A program made the position numbers and the translations under genes. Shown in pieces: positions 20,033-21,807 of a stretch of 34,816 nt of DNA (positions within the stretch are counted from its first letter, which is position 1; every line of letters begins with the position of its first letter). The notes beneath the pieces are model-generated. The model was not told the origin of the DNA, ran no database searches, and saw nothing but the letters and a program-made list of their open reading frames with translations. The stretch is from an uncultured Clostridia bacterium (GTDB lineage: Bacteria; Bacillota; Clostridia; TANB77; CAG-508). The stretch is from assembly GCA_947629995.1 (NCBI GenBank), contig CANRFX010000002.1, positions 1-34,816 of the forward strand, written 5' to 3'.

Positions 20033-20407
20033 CTATATACTATTAAATATTTGAACTACTATCTTCCAAATTCCAAAAGCTCCAAATAATACTGCACAAC
20101 CAATAAAGTAAACTACTAAATGCTCTTTTGTTTTGGCTTTGTCTTCAACAGAGGAATACATATACTGCATTCCTAGTACTATTCCTACAATGACAGCTAT
20201 TACTGTACCTATTGAAAGAAATGCTATATATATAATATCGGAAAAAGTTTTCATATCTCCTATTGCAATTGTTTGATCTTTTTTTAAAAAATTATCTGCG
20301 TTATCCATAATATTCCCAATTGGATCTGCTGCATATACTACTGATGTTGATATACTTAAAGTCATTACAATTAATATTAAAGTTATAATTAATTTCATCT
20401 TTTTCAT
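20033..20407 (-). CDS. VirB2/TrbC-like small secreted two-TM protein, divergent paralog 1
   Basis: 124 aa from ATG 20407 (MKKMKLIITL), preceded by GGAGAG RBS. Has a signal peptide ending VYA-AD, followed by two hydrophobic helices separated by MQYMYSSVEDKAKTKEH. The track ORF start at 20509 is rejected because it runs through a promoter and a terminator. Confidence 0.55.
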   Translation of the reverse strand: MKKMKLIITLILIVMTLSISTSVVYAADPIGNIMDNADNFLKKDQTIAIGDMKTFSDIIYIAFLSIGTVIAVIVGIVLGMQYMYSSVEDKAKTKEHLVVYFIGCAVLFGAFGIWKIVVQIFNSI

Positions 20408-20440
20408 TGTCTTCACTCTCCTTTTATTTCTCCTATTTAT

Positions 20441-20469
20441 ATTATACCTTATTTTATGCTTTTTTTCAA
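20441..20469 (-). promoter_or_regulatory. Near-consensus sigma-A promoter for paralog 1 and downstream machinery genes
   Basis: Minus strand: TTGAAA (20469..20464), 17-nt spacer, TATAAT (20446..20441). Shares the 16-nt block AAAATGTTGAAAAAAA with the promoter at 21779-21807. Confidence 0.55.
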
Positions 20470-20493
20470 CATTTTTCTTAATTCTTATAACAT

Positions 20494-20547
20494 AAAAAAT
20501 GCATCTCAAATGTATAGAATTTTATCTATCATTTGAAATGCATTTTT
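20494..20547 (-). terminator. Long hairpin (about 22 bp, one bulge, one mismatch) with T-run; intrinsic terminator or attenuator after pilin-like paralog 2
   Basis: AAAAAATGCATCTCAAATGTATAGA (20494-20518) pairs with TCTATCATTTGAAATGCATTTTT (20525-20547). On the minus strand the hairpin is followed by TTTTTT. Confidence 0.65.
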
Positions 20548-20570
20548 ATTTGCTTTTATTATTTTATTAT

Positions 20571-20948
20571 TTATGATATTGCGCTTGCACCTAAGTTTTG
20601 TGCAAATCCAAAGATGATACCTGCGATTGCAGATGCTGCAAATACTAATCCTGCACCAATAACATATGGTAATAATGTTTTTTTGTATTCTGCTTTTTCT
20701 TCTGCACTTCCCATCATGTATTTTAAACCTAAAACTACTAGCACAATAACAGATGCAATAGATCCAACTGTACTAACAATTGTTATAATTTGATTACCAA
20801 CATTTTGAATTCCTGTTGTTCCTGATACTTCCATTCCGTTAAAACTACTTGGATTAGGTGCTGCTGTTGCTAATACTACATTAGATACTATTGTTAATGT
20901 CATCATAACTAACATAAAAATACTCATAATTTTTTGCACTTTTTTCAT
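20571..20948 (-). CDS. VirB2/TrbC-like small secreted two-TM protein, paralog 2
   Basis: 125 aa with a signal peptide. Carries the shared core GNQIITIVSTVGSIASVIVLVVLGLKYMMGSAEEKAEYKKTLLPYVIGAGLVFA. AAAGGAGG RBS. Confidence 0.6.
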   Translation of the reverse strand: MKKVQKIMSIFMLVMMTLTIVSNVVLATAAPNPSSFNGMEVSGTTGIQNVGNQIITIVSTVGSIASVIVLVVLGLKYMMGSAEEKAEYKKTLLPYVIGAGLVFAASAIAGIIFGFAQNLGASAIS

Positions 20949-21004
20949 GTTTTTTCCTCCTTTTATTATTTTATATAAATATTAAAAACTTAATAACTAT
21001 TTTT

Positions 21005-21033
21005 ATTATAACATATTTAATATATTTTTTCAA
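21005..21033 (-). promoter_or_regulatory. Consensus sigma-A promoter with extended -10 for paralog 2, overlapping the stop codon of paralog 3
   Basis: Minus strand: TTGAAA (21033..21028), 17-nt spacer ending in TGT, TATAAT (21010..21005). Confidence 0.55.
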
Positions 21034-21386
21034 CTAGATTTAAGATTTATAACAATATTATATACAATACCTGCTATTATAGAAGCTGAAAACACTAGTA
21101 CAGCACCTATAAAATAAGGCATTAATGAACTTTTATATTTTGCTTTTTCTTCTATACTTCCAGTCATATATTTTAAACCTATAACAACTAATACTACGAC
21201 TGATACAATAGAACCTACTGTACTTATTACTGTAATAATAGTATTTCCTAGATTATTAATATCACTATTAGAAATAGGTGTACCTGTTAATTCTCCAACA
21301 CTAAATCCATAAGTTATTTTACTAATTAATATAGCAAAAACAATTATTACTATCATAAATATTGTTTTTTTTATTTTTAATTTCAA
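21030..21386 (-). CDS. VirB2/TrbC-like small secreted two-TM protein, paralog 3 (TTG start preferred)
   Basis: Shared core GNTIITVISTVGSIVSVVVLVVIGLKYMTGSIEEKAKYKSSLMPYFIGAVLVFS. GGAGG lies 6 nt upstream of TTG 21386, giving 118 aa. The track ATG at 21425 would overlap paralog 4 and add a non-hydrophobic leader. Confidence 0.55.
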   Translation of the reverse strand: MKLKIKKTIFMIVIIVFAILISKITYGFSVGELTGTPISNSDINNLGNTIITVISTVGSIVSVVVLVVIGLKYMTGSIEEKAKYKSSLMPYFIGAVLVFSASIIAGIVYNIVINLKSS

Positions 21387-21405
21387 TTTATACCTCCATT
21401 TATGT

Positions 21406-21753
21406 CTATGACATAATTCCTTCAATAATAGCCAAAATATTTACTACTGAAAATACTAAAACTGCCCCAATTATATATGGAAACATTGTTTCTTTATATT
21501 GGGCTTTTTCTTCAACACTCCCAATCATATATTTTATTCCCATAACAACTAGAACTATAACAGATGATATACTTCCTACTAATTGCATTACTCCTATAAT
21601 TGTATTTCCTATATCTTTTAATTTTTCTCCGCCTGTAACTGTTACAGAATAATTATTGGGTTCAACTCTTGCATAAGATATGCATAGATTGCTTAATACA
21701 ATTAAAATTAATACAATTAAGATAATTATAAATTTTACTTTTTTCTTATTCAT
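21406..21753 (-). CDS. VirB2/TrbC-like small secreted two-TM protein, paralog 4 (first gene of the operon)
   Basis: 115 aa with a signal peptide. Shared core GNTIIGVMQLVGSISSVIVLVVMGIKYMIGSVEEKAQYKETMFPYIIGAVLVFS. Confidence 0.6.
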   Translation of the reverse strand: MNKKKVKFIIILIVLILIVLSNLCISYARVEPNNYSVTVTGGEKLKDIGNTIIGVMQLVGSISSVIVLVVMGIKYMIGSVEEKAQYKETMFPYIIGAVLVFSVVNILAIIEGIMS

Positions 21754-21778
21754 TTTTATTCCTTTTTTATTTTTTTAT

Positions 21779-21807
21779 ATTATATATCATTTTTTTATTT
21801 TTTTCAA
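21779..21807 (-). promoter_or_regulatory. Near-consensus sigma-A promoter at the head of the T4SS-like operon
   Basis: Minus strand: TTGAAA (21807..21802), 17-nt spacer, TATAAT (21784..21779), then AAAAAGGAA RBS and ATG 21753. Confidence 0.55.

What the first reader, a model, noticed from the sequence alone, without database searches (positions are those of the whole stretch)
20033..21807. Four tandem VirB2-like paralogs, three with their own near-consensus promoters
Four 115-125-aa proteins share one architecture: a signal peptide, then two hydrophobic helices joined by a short charged loop. Three of them share the core GN.II.V...VGSI.SV.VLVV.G.KYM.GS.EEKA.YK....PY.IGA.LVF. Three promoters of the form TTGAAA-17-TATAAT precede paralogs 4, 2 and 1. 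The promoters at 21779-21807 and 20441-20469 share a 16-nt block (AAAATGTTGAAAAAAA), which indicates that promoter and gene were duplicated together. Gram-positive T4SSs are generally described as lacking VirB2-type pilins. A multi-paralog, apparently highly expressed pilin-like set is therefore unusual. It could mean filament heterogeneity or antigenic diversification.
Basis: partly seen in the sequence, partly recalled or inferred. Interest (0 to 1): 0.65.

Follow-up and report, generated by a model that had tools for sequence, protein, structure and literature searches.

The report
Four-pilin array of clostridial secretion machine
Four neighbouring small genes encode VirB2-type pilus subunits for a type IV secretion machine that is built into the chromosome beside the replication origin in a large group of uncultured gut Clostridia. 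Current reviews credit this design, among single-membrane bacteria, only to the ultra-small Patescibacteria.

Summary
Four minus-strand genes (A 21406-21753, B 21030-21386, C 20571-20948, D 20033-20407) each encode a signal peptide followed by a two-helix hairpin with a charged loop. A, B and C pass Pfam's thresholds for T4SS_pilin and/or TrbC/VirB2. D falls below them, but its orthologues in relatives pass. TTGAAA-17-TATAAT occurs only three times in the 34.8-kb window, each time in front of a pilin gene (0.12 expected).

The array heads a chromosomal cluster of PrgI/VirB3, a split VirB4 (TrsD-like part plus ATPase), a VirB6-like protein and a giant wall hydrolase. The cluster lies beside parAB-gidAB-trmE. 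No relaxase, coupling protein or integrase was found in the window.

The cluster recurs in uncultured Clostridia genomes: 64 of 84 loci carry exactly four pilin genes. The paralogs form old, conserved orthogroups, which favours fixed, distinct roles over antigenic variation. C has its own promoter, the strongest ribosome-binding site, a conserved terminator hairpin and the most conserved core, so it is probably the major subunit. D is divergent and in relatives carries large N-terminal extensions.

The VirB6-like protein contains a fifth pilin-like hairpin (hhalign 96.9%).

The closest known system is the Patescibacteria T4SS with VirB2 arrays. Expression and filament formation are untested.

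The parts
21779..21807 (-). Promoter P_A (TTGAAA-17-TATAAT), head of the array
   Evidence: 33 of 58 A-type genes in relatives have a promoter scoring at least 11 of 12 within 150 nt upstream.
21406..21753 (-). Pilin A (115 aa), A orthogroup
   Evidence: PF18895 33.2 bits (cut-off 26.6) and PF04956 27.3 bits (cut-off 27.9). The clade holds 58 sequences in 58 loci with support 0.98.
21030..21386 (-). Pilin B (118 aa, TTG start after GGAGG); no promoter of its own, 19 nt after A
   Evidence: PF18895 42.1 bits and PF04956 35.5 bits. Only 3 of 62 B-type genes have a promoter scoring at least 10 of 12.
21005..21033 (-). Promoter P_C (TTGAAA-17-TATAAT with TG-extended -10); it overlaps the stop codon of B
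   Evidence: 69 of 98 C-type genes have a promoter scoring at least 10 of 12.
20571..20948 (-). Pilin C (125 aa), candidate major subunit
   Evidence: PF04956 40.1 bits and PF18895 38.0 bits. It has the strongest Shine-Dalgarno match and the most conserved core, 0.71 identity. 3922 homologous protein clusters were found. Matches to its core occur in gut metatranscriptome contigs.
20495..20547 (-). Terminator or attenuator hairpin followed by a T run, after gene C
   Evidence: MFE -28.1 kcal/mol over the 90 nt downstream. The median after C-type genes in relatives is -18.4, against -9.6 for random stretches.
20441..20469 (-). Promoter P_D (TTGAAA-17-TATAAT)
   Evidence: 25 of 80 D-type genes in relatives have a promoter scoring at least 11 of 12.
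20033..20407 (-). Pilin D (124 aa), divergent orthogroup; no terminator before prgI
   Evidence: Below the Pfam cut-offs here (26.1 and 22.7 bits). D orthologues in L012, L014 and L018 pass them. The clade holds 80 sequences in 79 loci with support 1.0.
19585..19923 (-). PrgI/VirB3-like protein (112 aa)
   Evidence: PF12666 25.8 bits, just under the cut-off of 27. It is present downstream in 77 of 80 loci.
18349..19584 (-). TrsD-like, membrane-anchored N-terminal part of VirB4 (411 aa)
   Evidence: It matches positions 49-302 of NF045975. Its orthologues carry PF26593 TraC-like.
16428..18407 (-). VirB4 ATPase (659 aa) with its own ribosome-binding site; overlaps the TrsD-like gene by 59 nt
   Evidence: PF19044. 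NF045971 CD1110 family, 197 bits, model positions 176-729. NF045975, 193 bits, model positions 292-891. Sequence of the overlap.
13688..16441 (-). VirB6-like polytopic protein (917 aa)
   Evidence: Weak match to NF045848 MMCAP2_0566. Present in 71 of 80 loci.
15299..15526 (-). Fifth pilin-like hairpin, inside the VirB6-like protein (residues 306-381, loop SSTTEQAKYK)
   Evidence: hhalign of the pilin family against the VirB6-like family gives probability 96.9%, E 1.5e-10, 76 aligned columns. The pilin HMM hits this segment in more than 50 loci, down to E 5e-12.
9792..13658 (-). 1288-aa wall hydrolase (phage tail lysozyme, NlpC/P60 and GDSL-like parts), VirB1 analogue
7514..9765 (-). Two anchored proteins of unknown family (441 and 303 aa) that close the cluster
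   Evidence: No credible family match. The 303-aa protein is conserved in 61 of 80 loci.

Best explanation
The four genes encode Sec-exported, signal-peptidase-processed VirB2/TrbC-type pilins of about 90-98 residues when mature. Each is a two-helix membrane hairpin with a charged cytoplasmic loop. They are the polymerising subunits of the T4SS encoded directly downstream: PrgI/VirB3, a split VirB4, a VirB6-like protein and a wall hydrolase. This machine is a vertically inherited, origin-proximal chromosomal organelle of a clade of uncultured low-GC gut Clostridia, not a mobile element.

The inferred mechanism runs as follows. The VirB4 ATPase extracts pilins from the membrane and stacks them on a VirB6-like platform. 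That platform itself carries a pilin-like hairpin, which may seed the polymer. The hydrolase opens the thick wall so that a pilus or trans-wall tube can pass.

The four paralogs are not interchangeable.
- C is the major shaft subunit. It has its own extended -10 promoter, the best ribosome-binding site, its own terminator and the most conserved core.
- A and B are co-transcribed accessory subunits.
- D is a divergent minor subunit, either a tip or adhesin carrier or a base adaptor. Its exposed N-terminus is expandable in relatives. In this genome it is transcribed together with the machinery genes.

Shown here: family membership, architecture, promoters and terminator, synteny, the orthogroups and the pilin-like hairpin in VirB6. 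Inferred: processing, polymerisation, the role of each paralog and what the structure is used for.
For: Family and architecture:
- Pfam T4SS_pilin and TrbC/VirB2 score above their gathering cut-offs for A, B and C, and for D-type orthologues in relatives.
- The AF2 hairpin model of mature C has pLDDT 82.
- The best natural PDB hits of the family profile are the R388 pilin TrwL (E 0.08-0.15, aligned over both helices) and Agrobacterium VirB2.

Genomic context:
- T4SS genes lie directly downstream.
- The same synteny holds in 76-77 of 80 related loci, and parB/DUF4446 lies upstream in 45 of 57 loci with enough flank.
- 255 species-level genomes encode relatives, and every listed record is an uncultured Clostridia, Clostridium, Eubacteriales or Bacillota genome, almost all MAGs.
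- 64 of 84 loci carry exactly four pilin genes.

Roles of the paralogs:
- Orthogroups D (support 1.0), A (support 0.98) and the B+C pair are each present once or twice per locus.
- Promoter enrichment is, the hairpin after C, and ribosome-binding-site strength.
- Core identity within orthogroups is 0.55-0.71, against 0.24-0.41 for the exposed ends.

No mobile-element signal:
- No relaxase, coupling protein or integrase is in the window.
- No relatives were found in the plasmid or viral collections.
Against: - No filament, pilin processing or expression has been shown for this organism. No RNA run holds it.
- The metatranscriptome matches are short contigs from relatives and may include DNA carry-over.
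- Foldseek could not tell the model from any other helical hairpin.
- D is below the Pfam cut-offs in this genome.
- PDB sequence matches are weak (E at least 0.08).
- The roles assigned to A, B, C and D rest only on regulatory layout and conservation.
Confidence: 0.75

Rival explanations
1. Alternative major pilins for antigenic or host-range variation. On this reading the paralogs are interchangeable shaft subunits used to vary the exposed surface, like the multi-copy trwL genes of Bartonella or the VirB2 paralogs of Anaplasma.
For: The exposed N-terminal segment and C-tail are far more variable between species (0.24-0.41 identity) than the hairpin core (0.55-0.71). Three genes have separate promoters. 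One subclade shows lineage-specific expansion of C-type genes, for example L076 with seven genes and gene orders such as CDC and CDCC. The Patescibacteria paper raises the same idea for its arrays.
Against: The paralogs are old and are kept as distinct orthogroups, one per genome, across 58-79 species. Copy number is fixed at four in 64 of 84 loci. B has no promoter and is co-transcribed with A. D differs in the otherwise conserved core motif. No recombination cassettes or near-identical copies exist in this window; paralogs are 27-48% identical.
Confidence: 0.12
2. An ordinary conjugative pilus. On this reading the locus is the mating-pair-formation module of an integrated element or a chromosomal conjugation system, and its coupling protein and relaxase are encoded elsewhere in the genome.
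For: VirB4 is closest to conjugative families: CD1110 of clostridial ICEs and the Mycoplasma ICE VirB4. The pilins and the VirB6-like protein weakly match Mycoplasma ICE families. Two tRNA-Ser genes, a common integration target, lie directly upstream. Coupling-protein genes can lie far from virB4 (PMC12102498).
Against: The window has no relaxase, coupling protein, integrase or flanking repeats. The locus sits at the same origin-proximal place, next to parB/DUF4446, in 45 of 57 loci of different species, most of them without the tRNA genes. No relatives occur in 72,556 plasmids or in the viral contigs. GC content is the same as in the flanks.
Confidence: 0.08
3. Not pilins at all, but small two-TM membrane proteins of another kind (holin-like, bacteriocin-immunity or similar) that happen to resemble VirB2 in composition.
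For: A helical hairpin is a very simple fold. Foldseek finds only generic hairpins such as ATP synthase c subunits and Esx proteins, all with E of about 1 or more. PDB sequence matches are weak.
Against: Two independent Pfam pilin models score above their curated cut-offs. No holin or immunity family appears among the matches. The genes are invariably linked to PrgI, TrsD, VirB4 and VirB6 in 76-77 of 80 loci. The signature loop recurs inside the VirB6-like protein.
Confidence: 0.03

Closest known systems
Patescibacteria (CPR) chromosomal T4SS with VirB2-like pilin arrays. Examples are Ca. Southlakia epibionticum ML1, where the array and machine are essential for epibiotic growth, and Ca. Nanosynbacter lyticus TM7x. 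Surveyed in PMC12102498 and reviewed in PMC12857230.
   Same: Both have tandem arrays of divergent VirB2-like genes (2-11 in CPR, mean identity 25%) beside PrgI/VirB3, TrsD, VirB4 and VirB6, with lysozyme or peptidase genes downstream. Both lack a relaxase in the cluster, are chromosomal and often lie near the replication origin. Both are monoderm-type (MPF_FATA-like) machines.
   Different: The host here is a Clostridia (Bacillota) lineage with genes typical of Gram-positive spore-formers (LtaS-like and Germane-domain proteins). The array is a fixed set of four conserved orthogroups rather than a variable one. A giant multi-domain hydrolase is part of the cluster. The phylogenetic relation of this VirB4 and these pilins to the CPR clade was not tested. 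Essentiality is unknown.
Mycoplasma ICE conjugation module (NCBIfam Mbov_0395/MMCAP2_0565 pilin-like protein, MMCAP2_0566, Mbov_0396, Mbov_0397 VirB4)
   Same: These are the best-scoring curated monoderm families for the pilins (36 bits for C), the VirB6-like protein and both VirB4 parts. The gene order is also the same: pilin-like, membrane proteins, then VirB4.
   Different: All scores are below NCBI's cut-offs. The Mycoplasma modules sit on mobile ICEs, to my knowledge with a coupling protein, a DDE transposase and one pilin-like gene. Here there are four pilin genes, VirB4 is split and nothing indicates mobility.
Bartonella Trw T4SS (multiple trwL/VirB2 and trwJ/VirB5 copies) and the Anaplasma VirB2 paralogs
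   Same: Both have tandem, sequence-variable VirB2 genes in a T4SS that lacks a coupling protein and is thought to build variable adhesive pili (PMC12857230).
   Different: Those are diderm systems with recent, lineage-specific amplification. Here the paralogs are ancient orthogroups with different regulatory layouts.
Archaeal Ced/Ted DNA-import systems (CedA1/TedC VirB2-like pilins, CedA VirB6-like, CedB VirB4-like; PMC9905601)
   Same: Both are chromosomal, relaxase-less machines derived from conjugation systems, with VirB2-like pilins in envelopes that lack an outer membrane. Ced/Ted is therefore a model for a possible DNA-uptake function.
   Different: Ced/Ted is archaeal. Only a faint NCBIfam CedD match was found (22.8 bits against a cut-off of 600). 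No DNA-damage or competence link is visible here.

Membership tests
VirB2/TrbC and T4SS_pilin superfamily (Pfam PF04956, PF18895) | Profile score above Pfam's gathering cut-off | tested here: met
   A scores 33.2 on PF18895 (cut-off 26.6). B scores 42.1 on PF18895 and 35.5 on PF04956 (cut-off 27.9). C scores 38.0 and 40.1. D is below both cut-offs (22.7 and 26.1), but D-type orthologues in L012, L014 and L018 pass.
VirB2/TrbC and T4SS_pilin superfamily (Pfam PF04956, PF18895) | Cleavable signal peptide followed by two hydrophobic helices joined by a short charged loop | tested here: met
   Hydropathy analysis and -3/-1 sites. AF2 models show helices at 45-79 and 82-124 in the precursor and at 17-52 and 55-97 in the mature form. 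Cleavage itself is inferred.
VirB2/TrbC and T4SS_pilin superfamily (Pfam PF04956, PF18895) | Fold similarity to solved conjugative pilins (TraA, VirB2, TrwL) | tested here: inconclusive
   Foldseek against the PDB gave no match with E below about 1, and the top hits were generic helical hairpins. The sequence profile against the PDB gave TrwL at E 0.077-0.15 and VirB2 at E 9.5.
VirB2/TrbC and T4SS_pilin superfamily (Pfam PF04956, PF18895) | Genetic linkage to VirB3, VirB4 and VirB6 | tested here: met
   for the window. 76-77 of 80 related loci show the same linkage.
VirB2/TrbC and T4SS_pilin superfamily (Pfam PF04956, PF18895) | Polymerises, with phospholipid, into a T4SS-dependent pilus | not testable with these tools
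   This needs purification or cryo-EM of the filament from a culture or an enrichment.
Patescibacteria-type chromosomal T4SS with a VirB2 array | At least two tandem VirB2-like genes near virB4, together with PrgI/VirB3, TrsD and VirB6 | tested here: met
   The criteria are as described in PMC12102498.
Patescibacteria-type chromosomal T4SS with a VirB2 array | No relaxase in the cluster; chromosomal and near the origin | tested here: met
   No relaxase, coupling protein or integrase is in the window. parB, parA, gidB, gidA, trmE and jag lie 4-11 kb upstream.
Patescibacteria-type chromosomal T4SS with a VirB2 array | VirB4 falls inside the monophyletic Patescibacteria clade, and the host is a Patescibacterium | tested here: not met
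   The host is an uncultured Clostridia MAG lineage (record titles; rabbit gut runs). The VirB4 phylogeny against CPR references was not run because no reference sequences were available.
Patescibacteria-type chromosomal T4SS with a VirB2 array | Essential for growth on a host bacterium | not testable with these tools
   The organism is uncultured.
Mycoplasma ICE pilin-like protein (NCBIfam NF045849, Mbov_0395 family) | Score above NCBI's cut-off of 40 bits | tested here: not met
   C 36.0, B 28.6, D 23.7 and A 17.3 bits.
Variant-pilin arrays of the Bartonella Trw type | Recent lineage-specific tandem amplification of near-identical pilin genes | tested here: not met
   The paralogs are 27-48% identical. 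The orthogroups are shared by 58-79 species-level loci.
   Maff2 is not among the Pfam matches at E up to 1 for any of the four proteins.

The most novel reading that the evidence does not exclude
A whole clade of uncultured, low-GC gut Clostridia keeps a Patescibacteria-style, relaxase-less, origin-proximal T4SS as a core organelle. It extrudes a heteromeric VirB2 pilus or tube through a thick Gram-positive wall. The shaft is made of C, with A and B as accessory subunits and D as a subunit that displays an ectodomain. The polymer is seeded on a VirB6-like platform that carries its own built-in pilin hairpin. The structure serves obligate contact with other cells, for uptake or exchange of material or DNA. 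This would explain why these bacteria resist cultivation. It would also mean that the VirB2 pilins of the CPR machines were already present in a Firmicutes-type MPF_FATA ancestor rather than borrowed from diderm systems.
Probability: 0.3. Interest if true: 0.85.

Novelty: new member of a known kind. Interest (0 to 1): 0.6.

Why it matters
The 2025 T4SS reviews state that VirB2 pilins are absent from Gram-positive T4SSs, with Patescibacteria as the single exception, and they call the Patescibacteria systems unique among monoderms in their potential to build conjugative pili (PMC12857230; PMC12102498). This locus shows the same design in Bacillota, fixed in the chromosome of at least 255 species-level genomes of gut Clostridia.

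That bears on three open questions.
- Can a VirB2 polymer cross a thick peptidoglycan wall?
- Where did the pilins of the CPR machines come from? The CPR survey could not rule out co-option from other T4SS classes, because pilins seemed absent from MPF_FATA.
- What do relaxase-less T4SSs do in small-genome, uncultured gut bacteria?

The fixed four-orthogroup set and the pilin-like hairpin inside VirB6 give concrete, testable hypotheses for how the pilus is nucleated and how its subunits divide the work.

Tried and rejected
- Foldseek of the full-length C model and of the mature C model against the PDB gave only generic helical hairpins with E of about 1 or more. The fold is too simple for this test.
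- blastn and tblastn against PLSDB plasmids found no match. A scan of viral contigs with the pilin profile found no relative. The family therefore shows no trace on known plasmids or phages at this sensitivity.
A genome-wide search for a coupling protein, a relaxase or further pilin genes could not be done, and the fetch from genomes was shut too.
- No RNA run holds this organism. Only 5-7% of the sampled words of gene C occur in gut metatranscriptomes. Laying four of those runs showed short contigs, 80-95% alike, that cover only the conserved core of C. This is weak evidence that relatives transcribe such genes.
- I checked whether the TrsD/VirB4 split could be a CGG +1 frameshift fusion, as other notes report for this genome. 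None of the T4SS genes has an in-frame CGG, and VirB4 has its own GGAGG site and ATG inside the overlap. It is a true two-gene split, as in pGO1 and CPR.
- Source databases give these proteins no names.
- Literature searches for TANB77 plus type IV secretion, and for VirB6 with an embedded pilin-like module, found nothing relevant.
- I rejected an ICE integrated at tRNA-Ser, because the locus is in the same place in relatives that lack the tRNA genes.
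Full report
**1. Observation**

The minus strand between 20033 and 21807 carries four small genes:
- A, 21406-21753, 115 aa.
- B, 21030-21386, 118 aa, with a TTG start 7 nt after GGAGG.
- C, 20571-20948, 125 aa.
- D, 20033-20407, 124 aa.

Each protein begins with a Lys-rich N-terminus and a hydrophobic stretch that ends in a plausible signal-peptidase I site: SYA|RV in A, TYG|FS in B, VLA|TA in C and VYA|AD in D. 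A variable segment of 20-30 residues follows. Then come two hydrophobic helices of about 30 residues, joined by the loop KYM.GS.EEKA.YK. AlphaFold2 predicts the same layout. The precursor model has pLDDT 76. The mature form, modelled from 134 sequences, has pLDDT 82 with helices at 17-52 and 55-97. D is 27-30% identical to the others.

The three promoters TTGAAA-17-TATAAT (21807-21779, 21033-21005, 20469-20441) are the three best hits of the promoter scan. They are also the only matches to TTGA[AC]A-N17-TATAAT on either strand of the whole 34.8-kb window, where block shuffles give 0.12 on average. The 16-nt block shared by the A and D promoters is there. Exact unitigs from four rabbit-gut DNA runs cover the B/C and C/D junctions and the junction between gene A and its promoter.

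**2. What the proteins are**

Pfam places A, B and C above the curated cut-offs of T4SS_pilin (PF18895). B and C also pass TrbC/VirB2 (PF04956). D is just below both. D-type orthologues in related genomes pass. NCBIfam's nearest model is the Mycoplasma ICE pilin-like family, below its cut-off. No holin, immunity or Maff2 family appears.

A profile of the family searched against all PDB sequences returns only a handful of hits. The best natural ones are the R388 pilin TrwL (E 0.08-0.15, aligned over both helices) and Agrobacterium VirB2. Foldseek was uninformative twice, because a helical hairpin matches many unrelated proteins.

**3. Context**

Directly downstream lie these genes:
- A PrgI/VirB3-like gene.
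- A 411-aa membrane-anchored protein that matches the N-terminal part (positions 49-302) of the Mycoplasma VirB4 model.
- A 659-aa VirB4 ATPase that matches positions 292-891 of the same model and positions 176-729 of the clostridial CD1110 family. VirB4 is therefore split into a TrsD-like part and an ATPase part.
- A 917-aa VirB6-like protein.
- A 1288-aa hydrolase (phage tail lysozyme, NlpC/P60 and GDSL-like parts).
- Two anchored proteins of unknown family.

Upstream lie two tRNA-Ser genes, an LtaS-like gene, a PMT_2 gene, DUF4446, parB, parA, gidB, gidA, trmE and jag, which together mark the replication-origin region. The window has no relaxase, coupling protein or integrase, and GC content does not change across the cluster.

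**4. Relatives**

Pilin C has 3922 homologous protein clusters, and all 120 listed carry the same two Pfam domains. Contigs that encode its closest relatives show the same order: jag, trmE, gidA, gidB, parA, parB, DUF4446, four pilins, PrgI, TraC-like N-terminal part, ATPase, a protein of about 900 aa, then a big hydrolase.

A scan of one genome per prokaryotic species found 255 genomes with relatives. Almost all of the 79 loci kept are MAGs titled uncultured Clostridia, Clostridium, Eubacteriales or Bacillota, from rabbit, zoo animals, chicken, goat and human gut, including Clostridium sp. CAG:343. PrgI, TrsD and VirB4 follow the array in 76-77 of 80 distinct loci. parB/DUF4446 precede it in 45 of the 57 loci with at least 4 kb of upstream flank. 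Plasmid and viral collections hold nothing similar. This is a vertically inherited chromosomal locus, not an ICE sitting at a tRNA gene.

**5. The array itself**

64 of 84 loci have exactly four pilin genes, 17 have three (some cut by contig ends) and one has seven. A tree of 306 pilins gives these groups:
- A D clade of 80 sequences in 79 loci, with support 1.0 and a long stem.
- An A clade of 58 sequences in 58 loci, with support 0.98.
- A B+C supergroup with two members per locus.

The duplications therefore predate the clade, and each paralog has been kept. Gene order has changed over time. ADBC is the most common order (35 loci), followed by DABC (11). The window's order, ABCD, occurs in six loci.

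Within orthogroups the hairpin core is 55-71% identical, with C highest and D lowest. The exposed N-terminal segment is 24-33% identical and the C-tail 28-41%.

Regulation differs by orthogroup and is conserved:
- 57% of A-type genes and 31% of D-type genes have a promoter scoring at least 11 of 12 within 150 nt upstream.
- 70% of C-type genes have one scoring at least 10 of 12, usually with a TG-extended -10.
- B-type genes almost never have one.
- Random 150-nt stretches reach 11 of 12 in 1.5% of cases and 10 of 12 in 11%.

C-type genes have the strongest Shine-Dalgarno sites. They are also followed by a strong hairpin, with a median MFE of -18.4 against -9.6 for random stretches and -28.1 in the window at 20495-20547.

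D-type genes are the ones that grow. 18 of 80 exceed 150 aa and the longest is 524 aa. The pilin hairpin sits at the C-terminus, and the N-terminal 170-450 residues match no Pfam domain.

**6. A fifth pilin module**

The clade-specific pilin HMM also hits the VirB6-like protein in more than 50 loci, down to E 5e-12. I then took the VirB6-like family by BLAST, without using the pilin HMM, and compared it with the pilin family profile to profile. The result was probability 96.9%, E 1.5e-10 and 76 aligned columns. Pilin residues 45-120 align with VirB6-like residues 306-381 (window 15299-15526). The signature loop is present, as GIRIlLSSt.eKAKYK against GIKYM.gSvEEKAeyK. I found no paper describing this.

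**7. Mechanism**

The following account is inferred. Prepilins are inserted by Sec and cleaved, leaving N-out/C-out hairpins. The split VirB4, anchored by PrgI, extracts them and feeds a VirB6-like platform. The pilin-like hairpin of that platform may provide the first layer of the polymer. The hydrolase opens the wall.

C, with its own promoter, best ribosome-binding site, terminator and most conserved core, is the likely major subunit. A and B, which share one transcript, are accessory subunits. D is divergent and expandable. In this genome it sits behind the terminator and in front of prgI with no terminator of its own, so it is probably a minor subunit that displays an ectodomain or links the polymer to the machine.

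Whether the product is a long pilus or a short tube across the wall cannot be told. Its use (adhesion, contact-dependent uptake or exchange, or DNA import) is also open.

**8. Comparison with what is known**

The closest system is the Patescibacteria T4SS. It has VirB2-like arrays of 2-11 genes beside PrgI, TrsD, VirB4 and VirB6, with no relaxase, and it is often near the origin. It is essential in Southlakia epibionticum (PMC12102498; PMC12857230). Both papers say that Gram-positive T4SSs otherwise lack VirB2. The survey even leaves open that the CPR pilins were borrowed from other T4SS classes, because MPF_FATA seemed to have none.

The present locus meets the architectural criteria but lies in Clostridia. 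Its phylogenetic relation to the CPR clade was not tested. Other comparators are Mycoplasma ICE modules (the best curated matches, all below cut-off), the Bartonella Trw pilin arrays (recent amplification, diderm) and archaeal Ced/Ted DNA importers.

**9. Novelty and limits**

The proteins belong to known families and the design is known from CPR, so I class this as a new member of a known kind, in a phylum where reviews say it does not occur. The notes of this scan show that other agents reached the same reading on many related genomes. That is not independent evidence, and I formed my reading before seeing those notes.

This window adds four points: the orthogroup structure, the orthogroup-specific promoter and terminator layout, the expandable D type and the pilin-like hairpin in VirB6.

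The limits are these. There are no expression data for this organism; the only hint is short contigs from relatives in gut metatranscriptomes. There is no structural proof.

Noticed in passing
window 15299-15526 (-), inside the VirB6-like gene 13688-16441: The VirB6-like protein contains a VirB2-like hairpin with the pilin signature loop (SSTTEQAKYK). It is conserved in more than 50 related loci. hhalign of the pilin family against the VirB6-like family gives probability 96.9% and E 1.5e-10. It may seed or dock the pilin polymer. I found no paper on it.
   Followed up: yes
window 16428-19584 (-): VirB4 is split into two genes. The 411-aa TrsD-like protein matches positions 49-302 of the Mycoplasma VirB4 model, and the 659-aa ATPase matches positions 292-891. 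The two genes overlap by 59 nt, and the ATPase gene has its own GGAGG site and ATG. There is no in-frame CGG, so this is not one of the genome's reported CGG +1 shifts. The split is conserved in 76 of 80 loci.
   Followed up: yes
L072:7966-9540, L069:6591-7805, L076:461-2851, L080:4918-6009, L012:1365-2288, L018:434-1327: D-type pilins of relatives carry N-terminal extensions of 170-450 residues with no Pfam match, ahead of a C-terminal pilin hairpin. They are candidate ectodomain-displaying or adhesin pilins.
   Followed up: partly
L015:1056-1679 and L038:9279-9887: Two relatives encode a fused double pilin: two complete pilin modules in one ORF of 202-207 aa, where separate genes would normally lie.
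   Followed up: no
L076:461-5301: One relative has seven tandem pilin genes (two long D-type and five C-type). This shows a lineage-specific expansion of the putative major subunit.
   Followed up: no
loci L001-L083 compared with window 20033-21807: Gene order in the array has been reshuffled during evolution: ADBC in 35 loci, DABC in 11 and ABCD in 6, including this window. Here D has moved from behind A to behind the terminator of C, next to prgI.
   Followed up: partly
window 28607-30560 (-): gidA/mnmG appears as two overlapping ORFs (552 aa and 100 aa). The relative L001 shows the same split (75 aa and 558 aa). Other notes of this scan ascribe it to a CGG +1 shift that is typical of this clade.
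   Followed up: no
window 21899-22100 (-): Two tRNA-Ser genes (GCT and TGA anticodons) lie directly upstream of the array, and an LtaS-like gene lies just beyond them at 22178-24013. No tblastn match to the LtaS-like gene was found in any of the 80 related loci, so this part of the upstream flank is variable between relatives.
   Followed up: partly
window 20632-20758: Gut metatranscriptome assemblies from cattle, sheep, horse and an unspecified gut sample hold many short contigs that are 80-95% alike to the conserved core of pilin C, with word depth up to 38. This suggests that relatives transcribe C-type genes in vivo. DNA carry-over cannot be excluded.
   Followed up: partly
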